The position numbers and the translations under genes are program-made. Below, piece by piece: positions 1,826 through 62,976 of a stretch of 64,000 nucleotides of DNA. Each line of letters starts with the position of its first letter. The stretch's first letter is position 1. Source of the stretch: an uncultured Bacilli bacterium. Its GTDB lineage: Bacteria > Bacillota_I > Bacilli_A > RF39 > UBA660. The notes below the pieces were generated by a model, which had not been told where the DNA came from, did no database searches, and saw only the letters and a list, made by a program, of their open reading frames with translations. Location of the stretch: assembly GCA_934086395.1 (NCBI GenBank), contig CAKOIE010000001.1:17871-81870 (forward strand), read 5' to 3'.

Positions 1826-1834
1826 AATGGCCTT

Positions 1835-3982: not shown

Positions 3983-4048
3983 CTCTCATCATTTTTATTA
4001 TACCAAAAATTAAAAATTTACGCTACATAAGTAGCAAAAAAAGAAGAA

Positions 4049-6421
4049 TTATGATAATTCTTCTTCTACATTTGTTATATTAGATAAATCTATATTATAT
4101 TCTTCTTGTTCTATTGAAAGATTGGATAAAGTAATATTATTATCAAAAACGCCTGTTTTAAAAATTTCTCTGACTACCGCAAGCATAACATCAACTACTA
4201 TACTATTACCAGCTTGTTTATACATTTGTGCTCGTGATACAACAATTTTAAAGTTGTCCGAATATCCCATAAGCCTCAAGGCTTCTCTTTCAGTAAGCAT
4301 TCTTAGCTTATCTTCTCCACCTTTATCAGTCATATAATTGTCAACACCAGCTCTATGCCTATTTCCCATTGTTGATAAGATAGTCCTTGCTACATCTAAA
4401 TCATACTTAATTGATGTTCTAAATGTTTTTGTTCCTGGAGTTAATACATATTTTCTAACCAAATCAGATAATACATATTTATCATCAACTCTTGAAGGAT
4501 CAAACTCGGACTCTTTAATTGAAATATTACCACATTCATCATATTGAAAATTACCAAATTCGCATTTTGATTCTAAAAATTGTTTCATACTAAATTTTAG
4601 TTCTATTGGTAATGGATATTCAAAATTTTTCTTTATATCTAAATCATTTCTAATGCCAACAACAAAAACTCTTCTTCTATTTTGTGGTATTCCATAATCA
4701 GCCGCATTTAATATTTGAGGTTCGGTAATATTATAATTTAAAGATTTAAAAATCCCTTTTATAATTTCCCATGTATTTCCATGATCATGTGTAGTCAATC
4801 CTCGAACATTTTCATATATAAATACTTTTGGATTTGCTTCTTTAATAATCCTTGCATATTCATAGAATAATGTACCTCTTGCATCTTCAAGGCCTCCTTT
4901 AAAGCCTACTGTTGAAAATGATTGACACGGACTTCCACCTACTAATAAATCAACTTTATCTTTATAATCAGTACCATCTAATAAGTTTATATCTAAATGA
5001 AAATCATCTTCAATTATTTTATCTCCATAATTTTCCATATAACTTTGTTTTACATAATTTTTCTTTTTGCTTTTAGAAGCATATAAATCATCTACATATT
5101 TTTTCTTTTCTAATTTGGAATTCATATTTTTTATTTTTTTAAATTCTTTTTCATGGTCATATTTAATTTCAATATCTCCATTATCACATGCAAAAACAAT
5201 TTCATATGGTGTATTATTTCTTATGAGTGCTTGTTCAATTGCACCTATACCACTGAATAATGTAGCTAGTTTTAGCTTAGGTTTTATAACATCAACTGCT
5301 TTTAATTCTTCGGTTTTAAATACGCCTGTATCTATTAGGTTTGGAATAATTTTTTCAAATATATTAACAACAATACTATTACCAGCTTGTCTATATTTAT
5401 CTTTATCTAACATTCCTTTGGGAAATTTAAATTTTTTTGAAAATCCCATAAGATTTGTACATTCTAATGGAGTTAGTTTTCTACAGGCGCCTTTTTTACC
5501 ATTATAAGTAGAAATATATGCAATATTCATAATATCAGCATTATCTTTTATTTTTTCATATGGAACAAACACAAATTCTCCATTCCAATTAAATTGTTGA
5601 TTTGCTTTTTGACATTGCATTATATTAGAATTAACTTGTGCTCTATTTTTATATTTTGGATTAGTAACAAATTCAAAACCTTTTTTACCCAAATAATACT
5701 TTGGATCAACTTTTAAGTCATCTTCCAAATAATCTTTAACTGTAGTTTTTAATTCTTCTTCTTCAGGAAATTTGAATGGAGCTGTATCTAAATCATTTCT
5801 TATACCTATAACGAATAGCCTAGGTCTATTTTGTGGTATTCCAAAATCTTTAGCATTTAATATAGGATTTTTTCTTATATATATTTTATAATTTAATTCT
5901 TTAAATGTATTTTGAACGGTTTCCCATGTTCTACCTTTATCATGATTTAGCATTCCTTTAACATTTTCAAATATAAAAGCCTTTGGTTGACATTCTTTAA
6001 TAATCCTTGCATATTCATAGAATAATGTACCTCTTGTATCATTAAATCCTCCACGTTTTCCAATTATTGAAAATGATTGGCATGGACTTCCACCTACTAG
6101 CAAATCGACTTCACCCTTATACATAGATCCATCTAAAAATCTTATATCTTGATAGAAATCTTTATCATCGATTTCATAATTTTCCTTATATGTTTGATAC
6201 ATACAATTAGGTTTTTTTAATGAACTATATAAATCATTAATATATTTATTTTTTTCTTCTAAAGACATATTTTCTATTTTTTTTAAAATTTCTTCTTTCG
6301 AATAAGGTAATTCTCTCTCACCATTATCACATGCAAAAATTATTTTATGTTTAACATCTAATTTTTCTAACGCTTGTTCAATTGCACCTATACCACTAAA
6401 TAGCGTTGCTAATTTTATCAT
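4049..6421 (-). CDS. Fused tandem DNA (cytosine-5) methyltransferase: two complete Dcm-type modules in one 790-aa polypeptide
   Basis: Each half carries the full ordered motif set: LFSGIGA (I), GGSPCQSFS (IV), ENVKGM/ENVRGL (VI), QNRPR/QNRRR (VIII) and AGNSIVV (X). The second module starts near KLKLATLFSGIGAIEQAL. Confidence 0.85.
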   Translation of the reverse strand: MIKLATLFSGIGAIEQALEKLDVKHKIIFACDNGERELPYSKEEILKKIENMSLEEKNKYINDLYSSLKKPNCMYQTYKENYEIDDKDFYQDIRFLDGSMYKGEVDLLVGGSPCQSFSIIGKRGGFNDTRGTLFYEYARIIKECQPKAFIFENVKGMLNHDKGRTWETVQNTFKELNYKIYIRKNPILNAKDFGIPQNRPRLFVIGIRNDLDTAPFKFPEEEELKTTVKDYLEDDLKVDPKYYLGKKGFEFVTNPKYKNRAQVNSNIMQCQKANQQFNWNGEFVFVPYEKIKDNADIMNIAYISTYNGKKGACRKLTPLECTNLMGFSKKFKFPKGMLDKDKYRQAGNSIVVNIFEKIIPNLIDTGVFKTEELKAVDVIKPKLKLATLFSGIGAIEQALIRNNTPYEIVFACDNGDIEIKYDHEKEFKKIKNMNSKLEKKKYVDDLYASKSKKKNYVKQSYMENYGDKIIEDDFHLDINLLDGTDYKDKVDLLVGGSPCQSFSTVGFKGGLEDARGTLFYEYARIIKEANPKVFIYENVRGLTTHDHGNTWEIIKGIFKSLNYNITEPQILNAADYGIPQNRRRVFVVGIRNDLDIKKNFEYPLPIELKFSMKQFLESKCEFGNFQYDECGNISIKESEFDPSRVDDKYVLSDLVRKYVLTPGTKTFRTSIKYDLDVARTILSTMGNRHRAGVDNYMTDKGGEDKLRMLTEREALRLMGYSDNFKIVVSRAQMYKQAGNSIVVDVMLAVVREIFKTGVFDNNITLSNLSIEQEEYNIDLSNITNVEEELS

Positions 6422-20304: not shown

Positions 20305-20363
20305 CTTTTATTCTCCTTCCGCCATGATTTAAATTAAATCATAGAAATTCGTTTTACTTCGAT

Positions 20364-21544: not shown

Positions 21545-21662
21545 AAAACTCTTGAAAGAGTTAGTAATAAATCTCTTTCATCGATATTAGCATTACCACC
21601 TTGCCTTAAGTAGGTTGGTATGAGTTCTTAGAGCTAATTCTCTCCCTCATTCTTGATAAAAT
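21545..21662 (-). ncRNA. SAM-I (S-box) riboswitch with terminator, leader of metK
   Basis: The reverse complement reads UUAUCAAGAAUGAGGGAGAGAAUUAGCUCUAAGAACUCAUACCAACC..AAGGUGGUAAUGCUAAUAUCGAUGAAAGAGAU, matching S-box landmarks (UUAUCAAGA, GAGGGA, CAACC, AAGGUG.UAAU, GAAAGA). The terminator AACUCU-UUCA-AGAGUU plus U6 follows. Confidence 0.75.
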
Positions 21663-29022: not shown

Positions 29023-29634
29023 TCAATGCTTGGATTTGTAGTTTTGATTATAATATTTTTTGGTATATTTATCTAATTCATTTATAAAGATATTTGCATA
29101 ATGTCTAATTTCTTGTTGTTCAAAAATATTTTGTAGATAATCTTCTAAAATGATTTGTTCACAAAGTTTAATTGCTTCTTCGATAGAGCCTGTTAATGGT
29201 ATTTTAGTTATAAAATTAGAATTATCAGGCAATTGACAATATAAAAAATATAATTCAGCTTTTAAATCTTTCTTTGTAAATGATTCTAAGCCATCAAATA
29301 AAGTAAAATTATTAAAGTAAAAATCAGATAATGCTTTTTTTCTAATATCTAAATATTTATTTAATTTAATTTTTAGGGCGTCTTCTGGTTCATTTTTTTC
29401 ATTTTGTGTTAAACTATGAGTATTTAGTTCTTCTATAAGTATTTCATTTGCTTCATTTATTTGTTTGGTTATTTTTTCAGCTAAGTCTTGTTGTTCTTTT
29501 GATGAAGTTGCAAATTTATCAGGATGCCATTTAATTATTAATTTCCGATAAGATGATTTTAATTCTTCAAATGTATAATTAACTGGTAATTTAAATAGTT
29601 TTCTTGCTTCATAAAGATTCATTTTATTATCCAT
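29023..29634 (-). CDS. J-domain (DnaJ-like) protein, tandem paralogue 1
   Basis: J domain with HPD: NLYEARKLFKLPVNYTFEELKSSYRKLIIKWHPDKF. Start moved to M20 (ATG 29634), which follows AAAAGGAGAAAA. No Gly/Phe or zinc-finger regions. Confidence 0.7.
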   Translation of the reverse strand: MDNKMNLYEARKLFKLPVNYTFEELKSSYRKLIIKWHPDKFATSSKEQQDLAEKITKQINEANEILIEELNTHSLTQNEKNEPEDALKIKLNKYLDIRKKALSDFYFNNFTLFDGLESFTKKDLKAELYFLYCQLPDNSNFITKIPLTGSIEEAIKLCEQIILEDYLQNIFEQQEIRHYANIFINELDKYTKKYYNQNYKSKH

Positions 29635-29839
29635 TTTATATTTTCTCCTTTTGATGTCGTATATTGTAGCATATATATTAGGAAAATACAACTATTTAAA
29701 TGTATATAAATTAAAAATCAAAATTAAAAGACTTATTGCAGTTTTTCCAATCAAAACCTGAAATAAGTCTAATAAATCAAATATATTTTTATAAACCTGC
29801 ATTTAATCTAAAAATTCACGTTAGTGTTAAAAATTCGTA

Positions 29840-30460
29840 TCAATGATTGGATTTTAATTTTTGAGAATAATAATTTTTGGTATATTTATCTAATTCACTA
29901 AGAAAGTTATTTATATTTTCTCTAATATATTGTTCTTCGATAATATTTTGAAGATAATCTTCTAAAATGTTTGTTTCATAAAATTTAATTGTTTCTTCGA
30001 TAGAGCCTGTTAATAATATTGTAGTTATAAAAAGAGAATTATCAGGCAATTTATAATATAGATAATATAATTCATCATTTAATTCTTTATTAGTTAATGA
30101 TTCTAATTTGGAAAATAAAGTGAAGTTATCAAGATAAAGATCTAATAATGCCTGTTTTCGAATATTTAAATATTTATCTAATTGAATTTTTATATTTTTT
30201 AAGGCTTCTTTTAGTTCATTTTTTTCATTTTGAGTTAAACTATGACTATTTAGTTCTTCTATAAGTATTTCATTTGCTTCATTTATTTGTTTAGCTATTT
30301 TTTCAGCTAAGTCCTGTTGTTCTTTTGATGAAGTTGCAAATTTATCAGGATGCCATTTAATTATTAATTTACGATAAGATGATTTTAATTCTTCAAATGT
30401 ATAATTAACTGGTAATTTAAATAGTTTTCTTGCTTCATAAAGATTCATTTTATTATCCAT
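29840..30460 (-). CDS. J-domain (DnaJ-like) protein, tandem paralogue 2
   Basis: Nearly identical J domain. Start at M20 (ATG 30460). The copies are offset by 817 bp at the stop codons and 826 bp at the starts. Confidence 0.7.
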   Translation of the reverse strand: MDNKMNLYEARKLFKLPVNYTFEELKSSYRKLIIKWHPDKFATSSKEQQDLAEKIAKQINEANEILIEELNSHSLTQNEKNELKEALKNIKIQLDKYLNIRKQALLDLYLDNFTLFSKLESLTNKELNDELYYLYYKLPDNSLFITTILLTGSIEETIKFYETNILEDYLQNIIEEQYIRENINNFLSELDKYTKNYYSQKLKSNH

Positions 30461-30536
30461 TTTATATTTTCCCCTTTTGTTATCGTGTACTATAGCATAT
30501 ATGTCAAGGAAATACAACTATTTAAATGTATATACA

Positions 30537-32828: not shown

Positions 32829-32859
32829 AATGACTTATGAAAATTAATCATAGGTCATT
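32829..32859. terminator. Bidirectional hairpin between the convergent PBP and noc-like genes
   Basis: AATGACTTATGA (32829-40) pairs with TCATAGGTCATT (32848-59), one G-U pair. T-rich tracts lie on both sides. The hairpin overlaps the noc-like TGA stop. Confidence 0.5.
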
Positions 32860-34087
32860 TATTTATTTTAATTATTGCTTGATATAAATCTGAAAAATCG
32901 TAATCTTCAAATTCAATATTGAAACCAGCATCTTTTATTTCTTTATTTAAATCAGAGATGGCTTTTTTTACACTATTTAAATCTTTTGGTATAATTCTTG
33001 GCTTAGGTGGTTCAACTGGTGTTTCGGGTACAACGATTGGTTCTGTTACTTCTAATTTTGGTTCTTCTTTTTCTTCACTAATTGGTTCTTCAGGTTGTTC
33101 TGGTACCAAAATATCACTTTCGATGCCTAAATCCATATTTGTTTGTAAATCTTCTAGAGATGGATAATCTGGTTTTGGTTCTTTTCCAATTGTTGGAATA
33201 TCAAATATATTTGTACTATTATCAGGTTGAGGTTTTGTTGGTACTTGTTCTTTTTCTTGAATTTCCTTAATTTCAGGATCTGGGTTTACTTCAATAGTTT
33301 CTTCTTTTGGAACTGGTTCTATTTTAGATTCAGTTATTGGTTGATCCTCTTTTGATTCAACAACTGGTGGAACAAATTTTGGCTCTTGATCACTTAATGG
33401 TTCTTCAGGAAATTTTACATTAAATAAATCTAATGAATCACTAATATTAGGAACCTCTGGTATTTTAAATGATAGATTTGGACTTATTGGACTAGTTAAC
33501 TTGCTTATTTCATTATCTAAATCTTTAACTGTTAATCTTTCATTAATAACTTTGTTTAACATTTCTTCTTGTTTATCTAGTGATGATAATTTGAGTAATG
33601 CTCTTGCATGACGCTCACTTATTTTATTTTCACTTAAGGCTTGTTTAACAGGTTCGGCAAGACTTAGAAGTCTTAATTTATTAGCAATAGTACTTTGAGA
33701 TACACCTATTTCTTTAGCTAGTTCTTCTTGCGTTTTTAAACCTTGGTCTAATATTCTCTTATACGATTTTGCTTCTTCCATTGGGTTTAAATTTCTTCTT
33801 TGAACATTTTCAATAACAGCTACTTGAGCACTTTTATAATCACTTAAATTTCTAACGATAACGGGTACTTTAGTTAGGCCAGCAAGACATGCAGCTTTGT
33901 AACGTCTTTCACCTGCAATAATTTCATATTTATCATTTAATTGTCTTACGATAATTGGTTCAATAATTCCATGTTCTTTTATAGAATCAGCAAGTTCATT
34001 TAAAGCCTTTTCATCAAAAACAAGACGTGGTTGAAAACGATTTGGGATTATTAAATCTATACTTACATTTAAAATTGCATTTTCCAT
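32855..34087 (-). CDS. noc: ParB-family protein, Noc-like, with a ~170-aa Pro/Glu-rich insert
   Basis: 410 aa. Contains IIPNRFQPR, IIAGERRYKA and the HTH GVSQSTIANKLRLLSL...ISERHARAL (B. subtilis Noc: GKGQSTIANKLRLLKL...ITERHARAL). The C-terminus ..AGFNIEFEDYDFSDLYQAIIKINK resembles the Noc C-terminus. It sits in the rsmG-proximal position. Confidence 0.65.
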   Translation of the reverse strand: MENAILNVSIDLIIPNRFQPRLVFDEKALNELADSIKEHGIIEPIIVRQLNDKYEIIAGERRYKAACLAGLTKVPVIVRNLSDYKSAQVAVIENVQRRNLNPMEEAKSYKRILDQGLKTQEELAKEIGVSQSTIANKLRLLSLAEPVKQALSENKISERHARALLKLSSLDKQEEMLNKVINERLTVKDLDNEISKLTSPISPNLSFKIPEVPNISDSLDLFNVKFPEEPLSDQEPKFVPPVVESKEDQPITESKIEPVPKEETIEVNPDPEIKEIQEKEQVPTKPQPDNSTNIFDIPTIGKEPKPDYPSLEDLQTNMDLGIESDILVPEQPEEPISEEKEEPKLEVTEPIVVPETPVEPPKPRIIPKDLNSVKKAISDLNKEIKDAGFNIEFEDYDFSDLYQAIIKINK

Positions 34088-34371
34088 AAATACCCTTCCT
34101 ATTCTAAAATTAATTTTACTTTATTTTGGTAGTTATTTCAATGGAAAAATTTAATTCAATTAAAAACTTTGTTAGATTAAGTAAAAACTTTATTGGTTAA
34201 TATTTCTTATTTAATCAATGTTTTAAATGAAAATTATAGTATTTCTTGGTAAGCTTAACAATAAATTAAATTGTATTTAAAAATTTTATTCACATTATCT
34301 ATTTTAATATCTATTAACGTTATTGAAATTATTATATAATTATTATAATAAAAATTAAGAGGTGTGTCTAA

Positions 34372-36075
34372 GTGAAAAAGTATTTATTAAAAGTTAAAAA
34401 ATTAATGGTATTATTAATTTTAATATATGCTATGATTTCTTTAGTTAGTTTATTTAATCCAATAGTTAGTGCCAGGTTATTAACAAGCTTAACTGAATTA
34501 AATATAAATCAAACATATAAGTTTGGAACACTATTTTTCTTAGTATCTGTTATGACTGGCATATTTAATAAATTAGCTGTTAAAGTATTATCTTATATTG
34601 AAGAAAGATTATTATATGAAATTAGATGTGATATGATTGAAAGATTAATGAATTATAAAATTAAAAATTTTGATAATAGTTCTTCTGGAGAATTTTTAAA
34701 TAAAATAAAAAATGATCCTCAAGATATAGTTTCTGTTTTTAGTATTGTTCAATATAATATTTTTAATATAGTAACAGAATTTTTTATGTTAATTTATGTT
34801 TTTTATCTTAATTTTTTATTAGGTATAATTTATTTTATTGGAATTATCTTTATTTATTTTTACGAAAAATATTCATATATAAGATTAGAAAAATTACAGA
34901 ACAATTTAAAAAATCAAATGGATAAAAATGATTCAACTATTACCGAAATTATTAGAGGAATAAAGGATATTAAATTGCTTGGAATTTCTAATAAGATTAA
35001 AGGTAACACTATGAAATCATTTGAAGAACAAGTTAAAAATAATGCAAGTATAAATATATTTCAAAATAATATTTATAATAATGTTGAAATGTGTAAGGTG
35101 GTTATTACAGCATTGATTATATTTGTTGGCTTATTTTTAATAAATAATAATTTATTAACTTTATCGACATTTTTAATTATATTTTTATATCGTAATGATA
35201 TTTTTTCTTTAATTTTTAGTTATACATCTTTAAAGGAATATTTGGTAAGATATAAAGTTGCTAAAAATCGAATTAGGGAATTGTTTGATGAAAATAAATA
35301 TCCTATTCAAAAATATGGAGATATTGATTTAAAAAATATAAATGGAATTATTGAATTTAAAAATGTTACTTTTTCATATGATAATAAAAGAAAAGTTCTT
35401 GATAATATTTCATTTAAAATTGATAAATGTGAAGATGTTGCAATTGTTGGTAAAAGTGGTAGTGGTAAAAGTACTATATTTAATTTATTAACGAAATGCT
35501 ATGACAATTATCAGGGAACAATTTTTATTGATGGTGTAGATATTAGGGATTTATCTTACTCATCTATAACTAATAATATTTCAATAATTAATCAAAATCC
35601 TTATTTGTTTAATTTAACAATAAAAGAAAATTTAAAATTACTTGATAGAAATATCACTGACAAAGAAATGATTGTAGCTTGTAAAATTGCTAATATTCAT
35701 GAAGATATTATAAAGTTACCAAATAAATATAACACATTGTTAGGCGAAGGTGGACTTAATTTATCAGGTGGTCAAAAACAAAGGCTTGCAATTGCTAGAG
35801 CACTTTTAAAAAAAAGCAAAATATTATTATTTGATGAAGCAACAAGTAGTCTTGATAATATAACTCAAAAAAATGTCCAAACAGCAATTAAAAAGATTTC
35901 AAAAGATTGCACTATTGTTACAATAGCACATCGTTTTTCAACAATTATAGATGTTAATAAGATAATTGTTTTAAAAGATGGAAAAAAAGTTATTGAGGGG
36001 AAGCATGAAGATTTATTAAATAATGATTATTATAATAGCTTATATATTTCAGATAAAATAGTTGATGATAAATAA
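34372..36075 (+). CDS. ABC exporter, fused permease/ATPase
   Basis: 567 aa with a GTG start. Six-TM N-terminal domain, then GKSGSGKST, LSGGQKQR and LLFDEATS. Confidence 0.85.
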   Translation: MKKYLLKVKKLMVLLILIYAMISLVSLFNPIVSARLLTSLTELNINQTYKFGTLFFLVSVMTGIFNKLAVKVLSYIEERLLYEIRCDMIERLMNYKIKNFDNSSSGEFLNKIKNDPQDIVSVFSIVQYNIFNIVTEFFMLIYVFYLNFLLGIIYFIGIIFIYFYEKYSYIRLEKLQNNLKNQMDKNDSTITEIIRGIKDIKLLGISNKIKGNTMKSFEEQVKNNASINIFQNNIYNNVEMCKVVITALIIFVGLFLINNNLLTLSTFLIIFLYRNDIFSLIFSYTSLKEYLVRYKVAKNRIRELFDENKYPIQKYGDIDLKNINGIIEFKNVTFSYDNKRKVLDNISFKIDKCEDVAIVGKSGSGKSTIFNLLTKCYDNYQGTIFIDGVDIRDLSYSSITNNISIINQNPYLFNLTIKENLKLLDRNITDKEMIVACKIANIHEDIIKLPNKYNTLLGEGGLNLSGGQKQRLAIARALLKKSKILLFDEATSSLDNITQKNVQTAIKKISKDCTIVTIAHRFSTIIDVNKIIVLKDGKKVIEGKHEDLLNNDYYNSLYISDKIVDDK

Positions 36076-36094
36076 TTAGATATAAAATATTTAA

Positions 36095-36130
36095 TAAAAA
36101 AATCAGAAGGATTATTTCTTTCTGATTTTT
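36095..36130. terminator. Bidirectional intrinsic terminator (ABC exporter / rsmG)
   Basis: ATCAGAA (36102-08) pairs with TTCTGAT (36120-26), flanked by an A7 run and a T4AT3 run. Confidence 0.6.
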
Positions 36131-36833
36131 ATTTCAATGGTTTTTTTGTTATTTTATCATAATTTCTTGGATAAATAGATGGTGTTTCATTTACTTTTGT
36201 TATTTTAATTAAAGTTCTTAGCGATTCTTCTTTGGGTAAATTAAATTTTTGAATATCAGTTATTTCTCCACCTAAGATTTTAATACCTGATTTACTATTT
36301 TCTAATTCAGTACTAGCATCTGCTTTCATTAAAACTAAATTACCACCTATTTTTAGAAATGGTATACATAATTCATCTAAAACTGGCATGTTTGATACTG
36401 CTCTTGCGACAACTATGTCATATTTATTGCCTTTTTTAAAGAAATTTTCAGCACGATCATTTATTATATTTATATCTGTTAATTTTAATTTGTTAATAAC
36501 ATATCTTTGAAATTCACTTTTTTTATTATTACTATCTAATAAAGTTAATTTTAAATTGGGATATACTATTTTTATAACTATTCCGGGAAAACCGCCACCT
36601 GAGCCAACATCTAGAACTGATAAATCTTTAGTTAAATCGATTATTTTAGATAGGGTTAGTGAATCATAAAAGTGTTTTAAGTAAATGCTTTCTTTATCAG
36701 TAATAGCGGTTATATTGGTATGTTTGTTATATTCAATTAAAATATTAGCATATTTTTCTAAAGATTCTAATTGAGTGTCAGTTAGGCTTATTCCTAATTT
36801 TGATAATTCACTTTTAAATTCTTCTTTATTCAT
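36129..36833 (-). CDS. rsmG: 16S rRNA (guanine527-N7)-methyltransferase
   Basis: 234 aa. Contains VLDVGSGGGFPGIV. Follows mnmG. Confidence 0.88.
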   Translation of the reverse strand: MNKEEFKSELSKLGISLTDTQLESLEKYANILIEYNKHTNITAITDKESIYLKHFYDSLTLSKIIDLTKDLSVLDVGSGGGFPGIVIKIVYPNLKLTLLDSNNKKSEFQRYVINKLKLTDINIINDRAENFFKKGNKYDIVVARAVSNMPVLDELCIPFLKIGGNLVLMKADASTELENSKSGIKILGGEITDIQKFNLPKEESLRTLIKITKVNETPSIYPRNYDKITKKPLK

Positions 36834-42991: not shown

Positions 42992-43166
42992 TTTTCCACA
43001 ATAATGTGTGGAAAAGTGGAAAACTTTTTAACAATGTGAATTTAAAATTGTTGAAATTGTGGATAAGTTGTTTACATTCCGATAAAATGGACTTATTTTT
43101 GTGGAAAAGTATGTGTATAACTATGTTTAAAAAAAATTTTTGTATTTTTTTCTTTATTTTTCCACA
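42992..43166. promoter_or_regulatory. oriC part 1: DnaA-box cluster upstream of dnaA
   Basis: TTTTCCACA at 42992-43000 and 43158-43166. TGTGGAAAA at 43007-15 and 43100-08. AGTGGAAAA at 43015-23. A perfect TGTGGATAA (rc TTATCCACA) at 43058-66. AT-rich tracts lie in between. Confidence 0.85.
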
Positions 43167-44598: not shown

Positions 44599-44668
44599 TG
44601 TGGAAAAGTTCTAAAATAAAAATTTTAAAGAAAGCCTTTAAAATAGAGAAGTTTTAGAGTTTTCCACA
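44599..44668. promoter_or_regulatory. oriC part 2: DnaA boxes between dnaA and dnaN
   Basis: TGTGGAAAA at 44599-44607 and TTTTCCACA at 44660-44668. Confidence 0.7.
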
Positions 44669-45920: not shown

Positions 45921-45961
45921 ATGTTGTGATTTAATATACGACTAAAGAGGGGGTGAGTAGT

Positions 45962-46411
45962 TTGAAAAGTTATAAGATTACAGAAAATACATTAGCGATT
46001 GTACCATTAAGTAAAAAGAAAACAGTTGTATATGAAAATCACGATTATTATATTTTAGATAAGAATGTATCATCAGTTATTAATGAAAATTGCGAATATT
46101 ATGGAAGCAGTATTGATGGTAGATTAAAAGGAACTTATGCTATGCTTGGTTTTGGTTATAAGGCTCCAATTGTTATGTCTGAACAAGATAATATGATATT
46201 TTTTCCAACATGTTCTCCTAGATTAAAAGAATGTTCTTGGATTAATTTAGGAAATATAAAAAAAATAGTTCCGGATGACGAAAAAACAACTATTCAATTT
46301 TTAAATGATGAAGAAATAAATGTAGATGCAACTTATAATATAATAAGAAATCAATACTTTAAATCTTTGTCGCTTGATAATGCATTAAAAAATAGAAAAA
46401 AAGATAAATAA
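45962..46411 (+). CDS. ComK-family transcription factor homologue
   Basis: CEYYGSSIDGRLKGTYAMLGFGYKAPIVMSEQDNMIFFPTCSPRLKECSWIN aligns with B. subtilis ComK CRFFGSSYAGRKAGTYEVTKISHKPPIMVDPSNQIFLFPTLSSTRPQCGWIS. TTG 45962 is preferred over GTG 45953 on SD spacing (AGAGGGGG). Confidence 0.75.
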   Translation: MKSYKITENTLAIVPLSKKKTVVYENHDYYILDKNVSSVINENCEYYGSSIDGRLKGTYAMLGFGYKAPIVMSEQDNMIFFPTCSPRLKECSWINLGNIKKIVPDDEKTTIQFLNDEEINVDATYNIIRNQYFKSLSLDNALKNRKKDK

Positions 46412-52114: not shown

Positions 52115-52224
52115 TTTATATCGTTTTTCTTTTGATTTAAAAAGTTTTCCACATTTTTTTCATTTCAATATTTAAATTTTAGTTAGTTATTTATTAACAT
52201 TTTATTTATATATTTTAAAAAATT

Positions 52225-52238
52225 ATTTCCCGGGAAAT
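52225..52238. promoter_or_regulatory. Noc-binding-site (NBS) palindrome 1
   Basis: ATTTCCCGGGAAAT is perfect, embedded in a longer perfect palindrome AATTATTTCCCGGGAAATAATT (52221-52242). Confidence 0.7.
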
Positions 52239-52338
52239 AATTTTTTTATAATTTAATAATAATTTTTTATTAATCTAATAATTTTATGATCTTTTATTAT
52301 CCTTTTCAAAAGTTATTAACATTATTTTAATTATTTAT

Positions 52339-52352
52339 GTTTCACGTGAAAC
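52339..52352. promoter_or_regulatory. parS site 1
   Basis: GTTTCACGTGAAAC is perfect. The 16-mer TGTTTCACGTGAAACT matches the consensus at 15/16. Confidence 0.8.
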
Positions 52353-52390
52353 TTGTGTTATAGATATGTAATAATAAATATATTTATTAA

Positions 52391-52404
52391 GTTTCACGTG
52401 AAAC
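52391..52404. promoter_or_regulatory. parS site 2
   Basis: GTTTCACGTGAAAC is perfect. The 16-mer matches at 15/16. Confidence 0.8.
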
Positions 52405-52437
52405 ATATATGATTTTTATAGTATTTATTGTAAAATT

Positions 52438-52451
52438 ATTTCCCGGGAAAT
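52438..52451. promoter_or_regulatory. NBS palindrome 2
   Basis: ATTTCCCGGGAAAT is perfect, within AATTATTTCCCGGGAAATAATT (52434-52455). Confidence 0.7.
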
Positions 52452-52606
52452 AATTTGTTCGATTTTATTTCTATTAAGACTCTTAATTTTATTCTTTTTA
52501 ATTAATTATTATATTATAAATTTTTATATATTGATTAATTAATTTTTTCTTAATATTTAATTATTTTTTAATACTTTTAATTTATTAATTATATGTATTT
52601 TGTGAT

Positions 52607-52620
52607 GTTTCACGTGAAAC
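52607..52620. promoter_or_regulatory. parS site 3
   Basis: GTTTCACGTGAAAC is perfect. The 16-mer matches at 15/16. Confidence 0.8.
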
Positions 52621-52743
52621 TTATGCGAATTGTTTTTTTTTTATGATTCAGATAGTTAAATTTGTTTATAATATATTATTTTCTTAAGTTAAATTATTTA
52701 TGAATTATATTTAAATAATTTTGCTTATATATGTTCTTGTTAT

Positions 52744-52757
52744 GTTTCACGTGAAAC
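52744..52757. promoter_or_regulatory. parS site 4
   Basis: Perfect 16-mer TGTTTCACGTGAAACA at 52743-52758. Confidence 0.85.
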
Positions 52758-52878
52758 ATAATATTTAATTTTATTGATTGATTTATTATTCATAGTATTT
52801 AAATATAACTTATATTATTTTATATACAATTTTGTTTATATTCTTATTGTTATTAACAATATCTTTATTTTTTTATAA

Positions 52879-52892
52879 GTTTCACGTGAAAC
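52879..52892. promoter_or_regulatory. parS site 5
   Basis: GTTTCACGTGAAAC is perfect. The 16-mer matches at 15/16. Confidence 0.8.
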
Positions 52893-53086
52893 ATCAATGA
52901 TTTTTGTTTTTAATATAATGTAAATTATTTTATTTATTTAATGAAATTTTTATAAAAAAATCATTATTGTTTTATTTAACAATTTTAGAATATTATTTAC
53001 TAAATATTAATTTATCTTTTTTTATATATTAATTAATTAATTTTAATATTTGATTATTTTTAAATCATTATTATATATTTTGTAAT

Positions 53087-53100
53087 GTTTCATGTGAAAC
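53087..53100. promoter_or_regulatory. parS-like site 6 (variant)
   Basis: GTTTCATGTGAAAC, with one central C-to-T change. Confidence 0.6.
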
Positions 53101-53245
53101 TTATTTTTTTATATATAATTTTTTGGTAATTATTTATGATTCAGATATTTAAATTTATTTATATAAATGTTTATATACTATTTTTTAGGTTAATTTAATA
53201 ACAATTTATACTGATAAAAAAATTTGCTTGTATATGTTCTTGTTA

Positions 53246-53259
53246 TGTTTCACGTGAAA
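53246..53259. promoter_or_regulatory. parS site 7
   Basis: Perfect 16-mer TGTTTCACGTGAAACA at 53245-53260. Confidence 0.85.
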
Positions 53260-53314
53260 CATTAATGATTATTATTTTATATAATATAAATTATTTTATT
53301 TATTTAGTGAAATT

Positions 53315-53328
53315 ATTTCCCGGGAAAT
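53315..53328. promoter_or_regulatory. NBS palindrome 3
   Basis: ATTTCCCGGGAAAT is perfect, within AATTATTTCCCGGGAAATAATT (53311-53332). Confidence 0.7.
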
Positions 53329-53451
53329 AATTTGAGAGCTTATTTATAAAAAAATTATTTTTGTTTTATTTAACAATTTTAAAATATTATTTACTAGATA
53401 TTAATTTATTTTTTTAATATATTAATTAATTAATTTTATATATTTTGTAAT

Positions 53452-53465
53452 GTTTCACGTGAAAC
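53452..53465. promoter_or_regulatory. parS site 8
   Basis: Perfect 16-mer TGTTTCACGTGAAACA at 53451-53466. Confidence 0.85.
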
Positions 53466-53519
53466 ATCAATGAATATTGTTTTATATAATATAAATTATT
53501 TTATCTGTTTAGTAAAATT

Positions 53520-53533
53520 ATTTCCCGGGAAAT
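53520..53533. promoter_or_regulatory. NBS palindrome 4
   Basis: ATTTCCCGGGAAAT is perfect, within AATTATTTCCCGGGAAATAATT (53516-53537). Confidence 0.7.
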
Positions 53534-53669
53534 AATTTGTTCGATATTTAATTATTAATTCTTATATATTGTGTAGTAATTAATATGATTTTATTATTAT
53601 TTTAAATATTTTAAAAGTTTTCCACATTATTTTCTTGTTATCTATTAATTGTTGTGGTATATTATATTT

Positions 53670-53747
53670 GTGCAATGTGTATGTAATAACCTGGTCAGAT
53701 TAGGAATAAAGCAGCCATATTTACCTCTACGCATGTGCACTTTTTTT
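53670..53747 (+). ncRNA. ffs: Small (4.5S-type) signal recognition particle RNA
   Basis: CCUGGUCAGAUUAGGAAUAAAGCAGCC matches the SRP domain IV landmark (GGUCAGGUCCGGAAGGAAGCAGCC) with a GGAA loop. The closing helix pairs GUGCAAUGUGUAUG with ACGCAUGUGCAC, followed by U7. The upstream promoter is TTGTTA-17 nt-TATATT (53635-53663). Position is next to tadA/dnaX, as in Bacillus. Confidence 0.75.
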
Positions 53748-53769
53748 ATTTGAAAAGAGGTAGTTATTT

Positions 53770-59775: not shown

Positions 59776-62700
59776 ATGGATTTTTTAGATAAAATATTTG
59801 ATGAATTTAATAGTAATTCTATTTCAGGATTAACTGATGAATTAAAGGGATTATATATTAAATATCTAAGTTATAAATTTAATAAAAATGTAATTGTTGT
59901 AACTAATTCATTATATCAGGCAACTAATTATTATAATTTAATCAATAACTATTTTGATAATAGTTACTTTTTTCCTATGGATGATTTTATAACTACCGTT
60001 CTTACAACTTCTTCTCCTGATTTAATGGTTAAAAGATTAGAAACTTTGTCTTTAATAAGTAAAAATAATGAAAATAAGATTCTTGTTACTAATTTAGAAG
60101 GATTTTTAAAGTTTGTTCCTAAAAAAGATAATATTGTAAATCAGGATATTGTTATTAAAATAAATGATAATTTTAAACGTACTGATTTAGAAGATAAATT
60201 ATTTCAATATGGTTATAATAAGACAAGTATAGTTACTTCAACTGGAGAATATTCTGTTAGAGGTTTTATAATTGATTTATTTCCGTATAATTATGATAAA
60301 CCAATAAGAATTGAATTTTTTGGTGATGAAATAGATAGTATTAAAAAGTTTGATGAAGAATCTCAGCTATCCACCGAAAATATTAGTGATGTTACCATTA
60401 AACCTTATAAGGAAAATGATTTAGAATCTGACTCAACTTTATATGATATTTTAGACAATCCGATAGTTGTTAAGATAGATTCTGATAATATTAAGAAATC
60501 TTATCTTGAATTACAAAACCAAATTCTTGAGTATAAAGAATCTAATAATATTGATATTAATCATAAATATATGGCAAATTTAGAAGATATTTATATTAAA
60601 GATGAATATGAACTTAATAATTTTGATAATAGTAAAAGTTTGAAGGTTAATTCTCAATCAATAGATAATTTTAATTCTAATTTGGAAAATTTACAATTTT
60701 TTATTAATCATCGTAAAAATAGTATGATTACATTTCTGGCAATAAAATCTAAGGGATTAAAAGAAACTTTAAGTAATTTATTTGATGTAAGTATTGATAA
60801 AAATTATTTCCCGGGAAATATTTATTTTTTAGATTATAAGATAAATCATGGTTTTGTATTTGATAAATATATTGTTATTTCAGAAAATGATATTGTTGGA
60901 AGTAATTTTAGTGCTTCTTATTATAATCCGATTAAGATAGGTCGTAAGATTAAGGATTTTAGTGATATTAAACCGGGAGATTATGTTGTTCATAGGGCAC
61001 ATGGTATCGGTATTTATGGTGGTGTAGTTAATTTAGTTAAAAATGGTTTTAATAAAGACTATATTGTTATAAAGTATGCTGGTAATGACAAGGTATATAT
61101 TCCTGTTGAAAAGATTAGTTCTATTTATAAATATGCTGATGCCGGTAGTGGAAATCAAAAAATTAATTCTTTAAATTCTTTATCTTGGGCTAAAGCTAAA
61201 AGAAAGGTTCAAAGTAAAATTAAAGATATTTCTGATGAGTTAATTAAACTTTATTCGGAAAGAAAGAAGATTACTAGTCCGGTATTTAAAGAGATGCCTG
61301 AAGAAGTCATGTTTGCTAGTGATTTTGAATATGTAGAGACTTCTGATCAGTTAAGATGTATTAATGAAGTATTAAATGATTTGGCAAGTAAGAAACCAAT
61401 GGATAGATTGCTTTGTGGTGATGTAGGTTTTGGTAAGACTGAAGTTGCATTTAGAGGAATTTTTAGAACTGTTACTAATGGATATCAAGCAGCTTATTTA
61501 TGTCCGACTACTATTTTATCTAAACAACAATATGAAAATGCTTTAAAAAGATTTAGAAATTTTCCGATTAGAATTGAAATTGTTAATAGATTTACAACTG
61601 CCAATGATTTCAAAAGAATTACTAAGGATTTGGAAGATGGTAAAGTAGATATTTTATTTGGAACTCATAAATTATTTAATGAAAATATAAAATTTAAAAA
61701 ATTAGGACTTCTTGTTGTTGATGAGGAACAACGATTTGGTGTTAGTCAAAAAGAAAAAATTAAAGAAATGTGTACAAGCATTAATGTATTAACTTTATCT
61801 GCAACACCTATTCCTAGAACTTTGAAAATGGCAATGAGTGGACTTAGAGATTTATCAATTTTAGATACTGCACCTGTGGATAGATATCCAATTCAAACTT
61901 ATGTGGCTCAAGATAATGATTTCTTGGTTAAAGAGGCTATTTATAAAGAATTAAGTCGAAGGGGACAAGTTTACTACTTATTTAATAATGTTGAAAAGAT
62001 AGAAGATGAATTAAATAAATTACAGGGAATGGTTCCGGAAGCACGTATTTGTTTTGCTCATGGTAAGATGGATAAATCTCATTTGGAAAAGATAATTGAC
62101 GATTTTGTTAACTATAAATTTGATATTTTAGTTTGTACGACAATAATTGAAACTGGTATAGATATATCGAACGTTAATACATTGATAATAAAAGATGTTC
62201 AAAACTTTGGATTAAGTCAGTTATATCAAATTCGTGGTAGAGTTGGAAGAACAAATAAGATTGCTTATGCTTATTTACTTTATAATAATAGTAAAATTAT
62301 AAGTGAAGTTGCTGAAAAGAGATTGAATGCGATTAAAGAGTTTACTGAACTTGGTAGTGGTTATAAAATCGCTATGAGAGATTTATCTATTAGAGGTGCT
62401 GGAGATTTACTTGGTAGTGAACAGGCAGGATTCATAGAAACCGTTGGTATTGATTTATTTACTAAGATGGTGGAAGAGGCTGTATCTGAAATAAATGGTA
62501 ATCCGATTAAAGAAGATGACAGTGATAAATCATTGATTGATGTAAATACTCATATTGATGAAGATTATGTTCAAGATGAAAGTGTTAGAATTGAGATTCA
62601 CCAATTAATTAATTCAATTTCGGATAAGGAAAGTTTGTTAAGAGTTAAAAGTGAATTAGAGGATCGTTTTGGTAAATTGGATGAGAAAATAATTGTTTAT

Positions 62701-62976
62701 ATGTATGAAGAATGGTTTGAAAAATTAGCTATGAAATTAAACATTAATAAAGTTGTTCAAAATAAAAATTTTGTTGAATTATATATTCCTAGTGACATTT
62801 CTAATAAGGTTAATGGTGAAAAACTATTTATGGTTTTATATAGTATTAATCCTAAGTTAAGTTTAAGATACTTTAATAAAGAAATAATTATTAAACTTAA
62901 TTTAATTAATTTAGATAAGCATTATGTTTATTATTTAGTACCGTTTTTAGAAGAAATAATTAATGAGGTAGAATAA
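59776..62976 (+). CDS. mfd: Transcription-repair coupling factor
   Basis: 1066 aa. Contains the CarD-like GDYVVHRAHGIG, plus GDVGFGKTEVA, VDEEQRFGV and QIRGRVGR. Confidence 0.93.
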   Translation: MDFLDKIFDEFNSNSISGLTDELKGLYIKYLSYKFNKNVIVVTNSLYQATNYYNLINNYFDNSYFFPMDDFITTVLTTSSPDLMVKRLETLSLISKNNENKILVTNLEGFLKFVPKKDNIVNQDIVIKINDNFKRTDLEDKLFQYGYNKTSIVTSTGEYSVRGFIIDLFPYNYDKPIRIEFFGDEIDSIKKFDEESQLSTENISDVTIKPYKENDLESDSTLYDILDNPIVVKIDSDNIKKSYLELQNQILEYKESNNIDINHKYMANLEDIYIKDEYELNNFDNSKSLKVNSQSIDNFNSNLENLQFFINHRKNSMITFLAIKSKGLKETLSNLFDVSIDKNYFPGNIYFLDYKINHGFVFDKYIVISENDIVGSNFSASYYNPIKIGRKIKDFSDIKPGDYVVHRAHGIGIYGGVVNLVKNGFNKDYIVIKYAGNDKVYIPVEKISSIYKYADAGSGNQKINSLNSLSWAKAKRKVQSKIKDISDELIKLYSERKKITSPVFKEMPEEVMFASDFEYVETSDQLRCINEVLNDLASKKPMDRLLCGDVGFGKTEVAFRGIFRTVTNGYQAAYLCPTTILSKQQYENALKRFRNFPIRIEIVNRFTTANDFKRITKDLEDGKVDILFGTHKLFNENIKFKKLGLLVVDEEQRFGVSQKEKIKEMCTSINVLTLSATPIPRTLKMAMSGLRDLSILDTAPVDRYPIQTYVAQDNDFLVKEAIYKELSRRGQVYYLFNNVEKIEDELNKLQGMVPEARICFAHGKMDKSHLEKIIDDFVNYKFDILVCTTIIETGIDISNVNTLIIKDVQNFGLSQLYQIRGRVGRTNKIAYAYLLYNNSKIISEVAEKRLNAIKEFTELGSGYKIAMRDLSIRGAGDLLGSEQAGFIETVGIDLFTKMVEEAVSEINGNPIKEDDSDKSLIDVNTHIDEDYVQDESVRIEIHQLINSISDKESLLRVKSELEDRFGKLDEKIIVYMYEEWFEKLAMKLNINKVVQNKNFVELYIPSDISNKVNGEKLFMVLYSINPKLSLRYFNKEIIIKLNLINLDKHYVYYLVPFLEEIINEVE
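60806..60819. promoter_or_regulatory. NBS palindrome 5, inside mfd coding sequence
   Basis: ATTTCCCGGGAAAT is perfect, within AATTATTTCCCGGGAAATA. It encodes ..KNYFPGNIY... Confidence 0.6.

What the first reader, a model, noticed from the sequence alone, without database searches (positions are those of the whole stretch)
52339..53465. Eight consensus parS centromere sites packed into ~1.1 kb beside oriC
GTTTCACGTGAAAC occurs perfectly at 52339, 52391, 52607, 52744, 52879, 53246 and 53452, with one CATGTG variant at 53087. Three copies are the perfect 16-bp palindrome TGTTTCACGTGAAACA. This is the textbook ParB/Spo0J loading site (B. subtilis consensus TGTTNCACGTGAAACA). Chromosomal parS sites are normally single sites scattered over tens to hundreds of kb around oriC, often inside genes. 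Here eight sit 52-216 bp apart in a gene-free gap directly after gyrA, about 9 kb from the dnaA start. That layout resembles a plasmid-style tandem centromere (compare F sopC). It sits where B. subtilis has an rRNA operon. Such density would be expected to nucleate an unusually strong ParB-CTP clamp and SMC loading zone.
Basis: partly seen in the sequence, partly recalled or inferred. Interest (0 to 1): 0.9.

Follow-up and report, generated by a model that had tools for sequence, protein, structure and literature searches.

The report
Mixed ParB/Noc binding-site island near oriC
The gene-free gap after gyrA holds eight textbook ParB sites (parS) interleaved with four textbook Noc sites (NBS), and the same mixed island sits at the same spot in over 100 related gut Bacilli species, which points to a conserved two-protein landing pad beside the replication origin that has not been described.

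Summary
Seven perfect GTTTCACGTGAAAC sites and one CATGTG variant lie in 52339-53465 (0 expected by chance), and there are none elsewhere in about 84 kb around oriC.

Four perfect 24-bp palindromes AAATTATTTCCCGGGAAATAATTT are interleaved with the parS sites. Their core is the Noc-binding site (NBS).

The only ParB-family gene in the window (32855-34087, minus strand) is Noc-type. Its specificity residues are Q-K-S-R, which predicts NBS binding. It lacks Noc's N-terminal membrane helix and has a long disordered linker.

A scan of one genome per species found mixed parS+NBS clusters in at least 116 assemblies. Nearly all are low-GC gut Bacilli MAGs, and nearly all clusters sit next to gyrA, tadA or dnaX. 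Many are strictly alternating tandem arrays of up to 25 sites. Only pure parS and pure NBS occur, with no hybrids.

Best reading: a conserved origin-proximal island where two ParB-family clamps load, ParB at parS and the Noc-like protein at NBS.

Main gap: no canonical ParB or Soj was found. They are missing from their ancestral place beside noc in four species-level groups of this clade, and the whole genome could not be searched.

Verdict: a new variant of a known kind, of high interest.

The parts
52115..53658 (.). Gene-free island between gyrA and the SRP RNA gene that carries the whole mixed array. Site order: N-P-P-N-P-P-P-p-P-N-P-N (P = parS, p = variant parS, N = NBS).
   Evidence: No ORF of 40 aa or more. 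Site order. The same gap carries mixed arrays in 78 related loci.
52339..52352 (.). parS 1 (TGTTTCACGTGAAACT in 16-mer register)
52391..52404 (.). parS 2
52607..52620 (.). parS 3
52744..52757 (.). parS 4 (perfect 16-bp palindrome 52743-52758)
52879..52892 (.). parS 5
53087..53100 (.). parS 6, the variant GTTTCATGTGAAAC. The variant is kept in strain L123.
53247..53260 (.). parS 7 (perfect 16-bp palindrome 53246-53261)
53452..53465 (.). parS 8 (perfect 16-bp palindrome 53451-53466)
52220..52243 (.). NBS 1: 24-bp palindrome AAATTATTTCCCGGGAAATAATTT (core 52225-52238)
52433..52456 (.). NBS 2 (core 52438-52451)
   Evidence: (I13-I15)
53310..53333 (.). NBS 3 (core 53315-53328)
53515..53538 (.). NBS 4 (core 53520-53533)
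60806..60819 (.). Isolated NBS inside mfd. It is conserved in strain L123, and an NBS also lies inside the mfd match of close relative L038. It is an example of the dispersed NBS class.
32855..34087 (-). Noc-type ParB-family gene ('long Noc', 410 aa). ParB N-terminal domain with the GERR and ENVQR motifs. HTH with Q-K-S-R specificity residues. No N-terminal membrane helix. About 165-aa Pro/Glu-rich linker with a conserved YPSLED..TNM motif. Noc-like C-terminal domain. Predicted reader of the NBS sites.
   Evidence: TIGR04285 276 bits, below its 315 cut-off; best PDB matches are Noc: 7NG0, 7NFU, 7OL9
42992..43166 (.). oriC DnaA-box cluster upstream of dnaA (6 boxes)
   Evidence: GC-skew switch
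44599..44668 (.). oriC DnaA boxes between dnaA and dnaN
52140..52155 (+). Left copy of the 16-bp direct repeat AAAAGTTTTCCACATT, which contains the local DnaA-box form TTTTCCACA. It flanks the array.
53613..53628 (+). Right copy of the same repeat, just upstream of the SRP RNA promoter (TTGTTA-17-TATATT, 53635-53663). Conserved in L038 and L015.
52495..53490 (.). Two copies of a roughly 495-bp unit (about 52495-52990 and 52993-53490), each with three parS. Repeat pieces are 72-94% identical, while the palindromes stay exact apart from the single CATGTG variant.
   Evidence: D4, D5, D7, D9, D11, D14, D15; spacings 480-503

Best explanation
The gyrA-tadA gap is a conserved, origin-proximal loading island for two paralogous ParB-family CTP-dependent DNA clamps.

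The eight TGTTTCACGTGAAACA sites are the chromosome's centromere. A canonical ParB/Spo0J dimer would load there, slide out over the oriC region and recruit SMC. The four TATTTCCCGGGAAATA sites load the Noc-type protein encoded 18 kb away (32855-34087). Interleaving the two site types puts both clamps on the same few kilobases next to oriC. The origin is then marked at once for segregation (ParB) and for whatever the Noc-like protein does in this clade. Candidate roles are keeping division away from origins, anchoring the origin, or damping initiation.

Shown: the identity and number of the sites; their restriction to this island; their conservation and frequent strict alternation across over 100 species; the absence of hybrid sites; and the Noc-type recognition residues of the encoded protein.

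Inferred: actual binding; the existence of a canonical ParB elsewhere in the genome; spreading over oriC; and the physiological role.
For: 1. Exact consensus sites far above chance.

2. Confinement. All 8 parS in about 84 kb of this species lie in the island. In 120 related loci (862 kb), 497 of 500 parS are clustered. NBS also occur singly: 35 isolated against 360 clustered. That matches the known dispersed habit of NBS.

3. Conservation. The loci come from 116 assemblies, and nearly all have 22-30% GC. Of the 120 loci, 97 carry gyrA and 96 carry tadA, and the clusters sit in that gap or just beyond tadA. GyrA scores 1100-1300 bits against a self-score of 1880, so the clade is deep.

4. Selection on the sites rather than the spacers. 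Positions beyond +/-2 (parS) or +/-5 (NBS) fall to background composition. The commonest parS variant is at the known degenerate position, GTTCCAC. Spacers are unalignable between L015 and the window while the sites persist.

5. Two discrete specificities. Within NTTTCNCGNGAAAN there are 405 pure parS, 355 pure NBS and essentially no hybrids.

6. A cognate reader for NBS. The window protein aligns best to Noc structures, 187 bits against 163 for Spo0J. It has Q173, K179 and R201 equivalents. In PMC7383237, Q173 and R201 switch ParB to NBS once a permissive K is present. In the sampled clade relatives, 115 of 120 have QKNR.

7. The GERR and ENxQR motifs are intact. From my own knowledge these are the CTP-binding and hydrolysis motifs.

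8. Spo0J and Noc are known to cooperate in blocking Z rings over the nucleoid in B. subtilis (PMC6852036). S. aureus Noc restrains initiation and spreads 8-10 kb from its sites (PMC5540599).
Against: 1. No canonical ParB or ParA was found. There is none in the window, none in 10 kb beyond either end, and none in 120 x 8 kb of related loci.

2. soj-spo0J are absent from their ancestral place next to noc in four species-level groups of the clade: the window species, L127-L133, L149 and L151. More distant Erysipelotrichaceae-like genomes keep rsmG-noc-soj-parB. A targeted hunt for a clade ParB failed.

3. The Noc-like protein lacks the N-terminal amphipathic helix that defines Noc's membrane-recruitment mechanism, so its function cannot simply be copied from B. 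subtilis.

4. Position 184 is S/N rather than K. QKSR itself has not been measured.

5. The scan required a close parS-NBS pair. The sample is therefore biased towards mixed clusters, and it cannot say what fraction of the clade has parS-only arrays.

6. Alternation can arise automatically from tandem duplication of a unit that holds one site of each kind.
Confidence: 0.65

Rival explanations
1. One-protein system. The clade has lost canonical Soj-Spo0J. A Noc-derived protein (the long Noc, or an unrecognised paralogue) serves both motifs, so the island is a Noc-based centromere.
For: soj-parB are missing from the ancestral rsmG-noc-soj-parB block in four species-level groups of the clade, while outgroups keep it. 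No ParB or ParA was found in about 84 kb around oriC. The long Noc has lost the membrane helix and gained a conserved linker motif, which suggests a changed job. Dual-specificity ParB variants exist in deep mutational scans (PMC7383237).
Against: Q173 plus R201 with a permissive K is the NBS-specific pattern. Dual binders tend to mix parS-type and NBS-type residues. The complete absence of hybrid or intermediate sites fits two sharp specificities. The parS here is the universal ParB consensus, kept down to its known degenerate position. The genome beyond about 84 kb was not searchable, so absence is unproven.
Confidence: 0.15
2. The individual sites are functional, but their high number and alternation are a neutral by-product of tandem-repeat expansion in a permissive AT-rich gap. 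They are not a selected design.
For: The window array contains a roughly 495-bp segmental duplication. Close relative L038 has one extra parS unit. Unit lengths differ among species at about 80, 83, 108 and 126-127 bp. Assemblies often break inside the arrays, for example L074/L079. A single parS is sufficient for segregation in several species (PMC7333895).
Against: Mixed clusters recur in 116 assemblies despite spacer turnover, with a median of 6 sites. Heterotypic neighbours exceed label shuffles, 534 against 383 +/- 13, although this is inflated by ascertainment and by repeat copying. Site cores stay exact while repeat flanks drift to 72-94% identity.
Confidence: 0.25
3. Plain ParB centromere. 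The NBS-like palindromes are incidental.
For: The parS sites are canonical and outnumber NBS 8 to 4 here. Some relatives are parS-dominated, such as L092 with 8 parS and 1 NBS.
Against: NBS are perfect 24-bp palindromes, conserved in extended form across the clade and present in every sampled cluster, though partly by ascertainment. They alternate strictly with parS in many species, and a cognate Noc-type reader is encoded nearby.
Confidence: 0.05
4. Replication-control element. The island, flanked by DnaA boxes, recruits Noc/ParB (and DnaA) to modulate initiation at the nearby oriC, rather than primarily to segregate DNA.
For: All 8 exact TTTTCCACA boxes in the window are at oriC (6) or flank the array (2). 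S. aureus Noc restrains initiation (PMC5540599). From my own knowledge, Soj/Spo0J regulate DnaA in B. subtilis.
Against: DnaA boxes are only about 2-fold enriched near arrays and are present in only 34 of 120 loci. The right-hand box sits in the conserved SRP RNA promoter region. This role does not exclude the centromere role.
Confidence: 0.1
5. Remnant or cargo of a mobile element (plasmid or phage partition site) integrated next to gyrA.
For: Dense tandem centromeres are typical of plasmids. A phage- or plasmid-like contig from a similar sample type (BRZ gut metagenomes) carries a ParB.
Against: The syntenic position is fixed across a deep clade. The island has no genes at all. The composite pattern has 0 matches in 2.9 million viral contigs. 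No parS or NBS occur on the phage-like contig.
Confidence: 0.02

Closest known systems
Chromosomal parS-ParB(Spo0J) centromere of Firmicutes (B. subtilis type, TGTTNCACGTGAAACA)
   Same: Identical 16-bp palindrome, including the same degenerate position. Origin-proximal. Multiple copies.
   Different: Here 8 sites sit within 1.13 kb of non-coding DNA. B. subtilis has about 10 sites spread over a large origin domain, many inside genes. Here the sites are interleaved with NBS, there is no adjacent parAB operon, and the cognate ParB has not been located.
Noc-NBS nucleoid occlusion system (B. subtilis, S. aureus)
   Same: Identical 14-bp core ATTTCCCGGGAAAT. A Noc-type HTH (QSTIANKLRLL...SERHARAL). 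The gene lies next to rsmG. Dispersed single NBS also exist (1 in mfd here; 35 in 862 kb of related loci).
   Different: NBS are additionally clustered with parS in an origin island. The conserved site extends to 24 bp. The protein lacks the N-terminal membrane-targeting helix, is about 400 aa with a long disordered linker carrying a conserved YPSLED..TNM..FNPFNN motif, and has S/N instead of K at position 184.
Dense chromosomal parS clusters in other phyla (P. aeruginosa parS1-4; Streptomyces coelicolor and Listeria innocua with 20-23 sites; PMC7333895, PMC7022226)
   Same: Multiplication of parS close to oriC.
   Different: Those clusters span several kb to hundreds of kb and contain only parS. 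None is reported as a sub-2-kb gene-free array, and none is mixed with a paralogue's sites.
Plasmid tandem-iteron centromeres (e.g. F sopC, 12 x 43 bp; from my own knowledge)
   Same: Many closely spaced binding sites in non-coding DNA. In relatives such as L048, L077 and L029 the sites form true head-to-tail repeats of about 80-126 bp.
   Different: It is chromosomal and syntenic across a clade. It holds two site types for two paralogues. It is not next to a partition operon. In this window it is irregularly spaced.
RacA-ram origin-anchoring sites of B. subtilis (from my own knowledge)
   Same: A set of origin-proximal sites for a second DNA-binding protein that acts alongside Spo0J-parS in a spore former. 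This clade has spoIIR and spoIID.
   Different: Unrelated protein family and motif. ram sites are spread over about 600 kb. An anchoring role for the long Noc is only a hypothesis.

Membership tests
Chromosomal parS (ParB/Spo0J centromere site) | 16-bp inverted repeat matching TGTTNCACGTGAAACA | tested here: met
   three perfect 16-mers, four with one outer mismatch, and one CATGTG variant.
Chromosomal parS (ParB/Spo0J centromere site) | Located in the origin domain | tested here: met
   The sites lie 8-9 kb from the DnaA-box clusters and the GC-skew switch.
Chromosomal parS (ParB/Spo0J centromere site) | Cognate ParB with parS-type recognition residues (R173...G/S201) encoded in the genome | tested here: inconclusive
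   None was found in the window, in +/-10 kb beyond it, or in 120 related 8-kb loci. It is absent next to noc in four species-level groups of the clade.
Chromosomal parS (ParB/Spo0J centromere site) | ParB binding, CTP-dependent loading and spreading at the site | not testable with these tools
   Needs ChIP-seq or in vitro assays.
Noc-binding site (NBS) | Palindrome ATTTCCCGGGAAAT, differing from parS at positions 1 and 6 | tested here: met
   five perfect sites; only pure classes occur. The sequence definition comes from PMC7383237.
Noc-binding site (NBS) | Cognate Noc with Q173, K179 and/or K184, and R201 | tested here: met
   The window protein has Q-K-S-R. Clade relatives have QKNR in 115 of 120. 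Binding itself was not tested.
Noc-binding site (NBS) | Sites scattered over the origin-proximal chromosome and absent near the terminus | tested here: inconclusive
   Isolated NBS exist: 60806 in mfd here, and 35 in the related loci. In addition there is a cluster, which is not part of the known pattern. The terminus region is not available.
Noc protein (nucleoid occlusion factor) | [quoted passage not shown] | tested here: not met
   Query residue 4 aligns to B. subtilis Noc residue 29. Only 15-20 residues precede PNRFQPR across the clade. The NCBIfam Noc model scores 276 bits, below its 315 cut-off.
Noc protein (nucleoid occlusion factor) | ParB-type N-terminal domain with GERRxRA and ENxQR motifs (CTP switch) | tested here: met
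   The motifs AGERRYKAA and ENVQR are conserved. Their role in CTP binding is from my own knowledge and PMC8429893. Activity was not tested.
Plasmid-style tandem-iteron centromere | Head-to-tail repeats of one unit, next to its partition operon | tested here: not met
   In the window the spacing is irregular and TRF finds no long-period array. No parAB is adjacent. Regular tandem arrays do occur in relatives L029, L048 and L077.

The most novel reading that the evidence does not exclude
This gut Bacilli clade has discarded the canonical Soj-Spo0J system. It runs its origin on a Noc-derived protein that has swapped its membrane helix for a long disordered linker with a new conserved peptide motif. 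The alternating parS/NBS island would then be the sole centromere, read by Noc-lineage proteins alone. That would amount to a ParB-to-Noc-to-centromere reversal and a natural case of dual or re-partitioned specificity.
Probability: 0.15. Interest if true: 0.9.

Novelty: new variant of a known kind. Interest (0 to 1): 0.72.

Why it matters
ParB and Noc are the textbook example of a duplicated DNA-binding protein whose copies evolved sharp, non-overlapping site preferences. Their sites are described as differently distributed: parS at the origin, NBS scattered.

A conserved island that deliberately juxtaposes the two site types, often in strict alternation, in over 100 species implies that the two clamps work together on the same DNA next to oriC. 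This gives a natural system for three questions. How do two CTP-gated sliding clamps share or partition a track? Why do parS sites multiply and cluster, which PMC7333895 names as an open question? What does Noc do when it has no membrane helix?

The sites are short and exact and the proteins are small, so the predictions are directly testable in vitro or in E. coli, without culturing these uncultured gut bacteria. The island is also a practical origin marker for these MAGs, and it explains why their assemblies break after gyrA.

Tried and rejected
1. Hunt for a canonical ParB or Soj in this clade.
   - Extended the window by 10 kb on both sides. None found.
   - Searched all fetched loci with Soj, ParB and Noc from L136. 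Hits came only from outgroups.
   - Protein search with the window Noc returned only same-species variants.
   - The metagenome scan with it gave the outgroup L136, which has rsmG-noc-soj-parB.
   - Its ParB was used for a second protein search and for the exhaustive representative search.
   - AT-rich candidates were checked by cluster names and contexts. They turned out to be Mycoplasma or Spiroplasma, a code-4 mollicute, an endosymbiont, a 641-kb small genome, and a phage- or plasmid-like contig. None could be tied to an array-bearing assembly.
   - Cluster look-ups gave no organism names for the clade's Noc proteins.

2. The supplement of PMC7383237 holds no value for the QKSR variant.

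3. Mobile-element origin was rejected.

4. The promoter and terminator scan of the island was uninformative: 31 promoter-like sites against 27.5 expected, and no terminators.

5. The DnaA-box-cluster idea is weak: 2-fold enrichment, present in 34 of 120 loci.

6. The strain comparison with L123 is too close (98.7% identity) to show selection.

7. I first suspected that the long Noc had lost the catalytic glutamate of the ENLQRE motif. Recounting the B. subtilis Spo0J numbering from memory shows that E111/N112 are the EN of ENxQR, which is conserved here, so I dropped that idea.
Full report
**Observation**

The eight sites exist as described. Seven are perfect GTTTCACGTGAAAC, at 52339, 52391, 52607, 52744, 52879, 53247 and 53452. 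One is the variant GTTTCATGTGAAAC at 53087. None is expected in dinucleotide-preserving shuffles. Three are perfect 16-bp palindromes, and no other parS-like site with 2 or fewer mismatches occurs in the 64-kb window.

The gap 52115-53658 has no ORF of 40 aa or more. It is bounded by gyrA on one side and by a small SRP RNA gene (53659-53754, Rfam RF00169) and tadA on the other.

DnaA-box clusters lie at 42992-43166 and 44599-44668, and the GC skew changes sign there.

Reading the sequence and the repeat analysis showed a second perfect palindrome, AAATTATTTCCCGGGAAATAATTT, four times inside the same gap. The cores are at 52225, 52438, 53315 and 53520. A fifth core lies inside mfd at 60806.

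ATTTCCCGGGAAAT is the Noc-binding site (NBS). It differs from parS at only two positions per half-site (PMC7383237). The island reads N-P-P-N-P-P-P-p-P-N-P-N. Part of it is a roughly 495-bp segmental duplication whose pieces are 72-94% identical, while the palindromes stay exact apart from the single CATGTG variant. TRF sees no regular long-period array.

**The proteins**

The only ParB-family gene in the window is 32855-34087 (minus strand, 410 aa). Its best NCBIfam match is the Noc model TIGR04285, at 276 bits against a cut-off of 315. Its best solved-structure matches are Noc (7NG0, 7NFU, 7OL9; 176-187 bits), ahead of Spo0J (163 bits).

At the four positions that decide parS versus NBS preference it has Q-K-S-R. 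ParB has R-T-A-G and Noc has Q-K-K-R. In PMC7383237, Q173 reads A1 and R201 reads C6 once a permissive lysine sits at 179 or 184. I therefore predict it reads NBS, not parS. The exact QKSR combination has no published measurement.

It is not an ordinary Noc:
- Residue 4 aligns with residue 29 of B. subtilis Noc, so the N-terminal membrane-targeting helix is absent.
- A Pro/Glu-rich linker of about 165 aa separates the DNA-binding domain from the C-terminal domain.

Relatives in the same clade share these traits. They are 378-431 aa long, have QKNR in 115 of 120, and have only 15-20 residues before PNRFQPR. They also share a short linker motif, YPSLEDExTNMN...FNPFNN. The GERR and ENxQR motifs are intact.

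No canonical ParB or ParA is in the window or within 10 kb of either end.

**Comparative evidence**

I scanned one genome per species (GTDB representatives) for parS-N{30,60}-NBS. The scan stopped at its 120-locus limit. The loci come from 116 assemblies. Nearly all are gut or rumen MAGs with 22-30% GC. They are labelled Bacilli, Erysipelotrichaceae, Tenericutes or Mycoplasma sp., and one is Candidatus Onthousia. I recall this genus being placed in GTDB order RFN20, but I did not verify that.

Of the 120 loci, 97 encode GyrA and 96 encode TadA. The clusters lie in that gap or just past tadA. GyrA scores of 1100-1300 bits against a self-score of 1880 show that the clade is deep.

The largest cluster per locus has a median of 6 sites in 578 bp and reaches 25 sites. 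The window's 12 sites put it among the larger ones.

Many arrays are strictly alternating tandem repeats:
- L029: 23 sites, period 126.
- L048: 25 sites, period about 80.
- L077: 25 sites, period 83.
- L074 and L090: period about 127.

Within the generic pattern NTTTCNCGNGAAAN the loci hold 405 pure parS, 355 pure NBS and essentially no hybrids.

Site logos show conservation of ATGTTTCACGTGAAACAT and of the 24-bp extended NBS. Flanks are at background composition, and the main parS variant falls at the known degenerate position.

Only 3 of 500 parS are isolated, against 35 of 395 NBS. parS is therefore island-specific, while NBS is both dispersed, as in B. subtilis and S. aureus (PMC5540599), and clustered.

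The composite pattern is absent from 2.9 million viral contigs.

Within the species the island is stable: L123 differs at 21 of 1657 positions and keeps all 12 sites. Close relative L038 has one extra parS unit. In L015 the spacers are no longer alignable, although the sites persist.

**Caveats**

- The scan pattern demanded one close parS-NBS pair per locus. The sample is enriched for mixed clusters, and the modal 40-70 bp spacing is partly imposed.
- The excess of heterotypic neighbours (534 against 383 +/- 13 in label shuffles) is inflated by that ascertainment and by the copying of repeat units.
- The fraction of the clade with parS-only arrays is unknown.

**The missing ParB**

Erysipelotrichaceae-like outgroups keep the ancestral block mnmG-rsmG-noc-soj-parB, with a parS-type ParB. 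These are L136, L139 and L142.

In the array-bearing clade the block reads rsmG-long noc-PBP1 without soj or parB. This holds in the window species, in L127-L133, in L149 and in L151.

I tried to find a relocated ParB with the remaining protein searches and context look-ups. I found only mollicute, endosymbiont and phage-like proteins. Whole genomes of the clade could not be read with these tools, so the presence of ParB elsewhere is unproven. I still consider it more likely than not, for two reasons. The parS sites are the universal consensus, kept exact across a deep clade. And the absence of any intermediate sites fits two sharp specificities.

**Mechanism proposed**

The island is a dual loading platform. 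ParB dimers load at parS and long-Noc dimers load at NBS. As CTP clamps, both slide onto the neighbouring DNA, which includes oriC 8 kb away. Spreading of 8-10 kb is documented for S. aureus Noc.

Interleaving guarantees that both nucleoprotein complexes occupy the same origin-proximal DNA. It may also let site-bound dimers act as mutual roadblocks that keep clamps concentrated, though that is speculation.

What the Noc-like complex contributes is open, because the membrane helix is missing. Candidates are division inhibition over origins together with ParB (cooperation shown in B. subtilis, PMC6852036), origin anchoring through a partner of the conserved linker motif, or restraint of initiation as in S. 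aureus.

Rivals are listed separately. The most interesting one is that ParB is truly lost and Noc-lineage proteins read both motifs (about 15%). A non-exclusive deflationary one is that copy number and alternation are neutral consequences of repeat expansion (about 25%).

**Comparison with the known, and verdict**

Each component is textbook: parS, NBS and a ParB/Noc paralogue. The arrangement is not. It is a gene-free island of less than 2 kb, mixed and often alternating, fixed after gyrA, and conserved in over 100 species. It pairs with a Noc subfamily that lacks the defining membrane helix.

Full-text searches found no description of such an arrangement. Reviews describe parS clusters as parS-only and NBS as scattered.

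I rate it a new variant of a known kind, with high interest for the ParB/Noc field.

Noticed in passing
window 32855-34087 (-); relatives P0403-P0522: The clade's Noc-like proteins form a distinct 'long Noc' subfamily of 378-431 aa. They have no N-terminal membrane helix. Their acidic, proline-rich linker of about 150-200 aa contains a conserved short motif, YPSLEDExTNMN...FNPFNN (window residues about 308-330). That motif looks like a partner-binding peptide.
   Followed up: partly
window 34088-36833; L149, L151, L127-L133 compared with L136, L139, L142: soj-spo0J are missing from the ancestral rsmG-noc-soj-parB block in this clade, where noc is followed by a class A PBP. In the window species an ABC transporter gene (34372-36075) is also inserted between rsmG and noc. 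Erysipelotrichaceae-like outgroups keep the full block.
   Followed up: partly
window 60806-60819 (inside mfd, 59776-62976): An isolated perfect NBS lies inside the mfd coding sequence. It is kept in strain L123 (position 11031), and an NBS also lies within the mfd match of L038 (position 34).
   Followed up: partly
window 52140-52155 and 53613-53628: A 16-bp direct repeat, AAAAGTTTTCCACATT, brackets the island. It contains TTTTCCACA, the DnaA-box form used at this oriC. All 8 exact copies of that 9-mer in the window are at oriC (6) or at these two flanks. Across relatives the enrichment is only about 2-fold (34 of 120 loci).
   Followed up: partly
L081 6892-7263 (Synergistaceae MAG JAVBRL010000212.1, 60% GC): Two parS sites sit in the intergenic region just downstream of a canonical ParB gene (R-K-Q-G). 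Each is paired with an NBS or NBS-like palindrome: TATTTCCCGGGAAATA, and ATTTCCTGGGAAAT 46-55 bp away. This lineage is outside the Firmicutes, where Noc is not expected.
   Followed up: no
L074 and L079 (CALVIV01); also L003, L012, L018, L036, L048: Many MAG contigs end inside the arrays. L074 (gyrA side) and L079 (tadA side) appear to be the two halves of one broken array. True arrays are therefore probably longer than seen, and they fragment short-read assemblies just after gyrA.
   Followed up: no
window 29023-29691 and 29840-30517 (-): Two tandem paralogous genes encode J-domain (DnaJ-like) proteins with near-identical N-terminal halves. Their function is unknown.
   Followed up: no
window 45953-46411 (+): A 152-aa ORF lies between dnaN and recF. 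Its orthologues in L149 and L151 carry Pfam ComK (PF06338). This is an unusual occupant of the dnaN-recF spacer.
   Followed up: no
window 716-6421 (-) and the 10 kb upstream (L124-L126): The left end of the window is a variable defence island with McrBC, a DNA methylase and Fic. One strain carries SMODS (CBASS-like) genes and another carries an AAA_21 protein, so content differs between strains of the same species.
   Followed up: no
L143-L145 (e.g. ERZ24773481 BRZ_PC NODE_153, 120 kb): A ParB with parS-type residues (P0258) is seen on 24 or more contigs. It sits in a phage- or plasmid-like context with PARG, RtcB, RNase H, NAD ligase and primase. The contigs have 33% GC, and no parS or NBS lies within 20 kb.
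   Followed up: no
window 21575-21662 (-) and 20313-20344 (-): A SAM riboswitch and an L31-Firmicutes ribosomal leader are present. Both are ordinary and consistent with a Bacillota origin.
   Followed up: no
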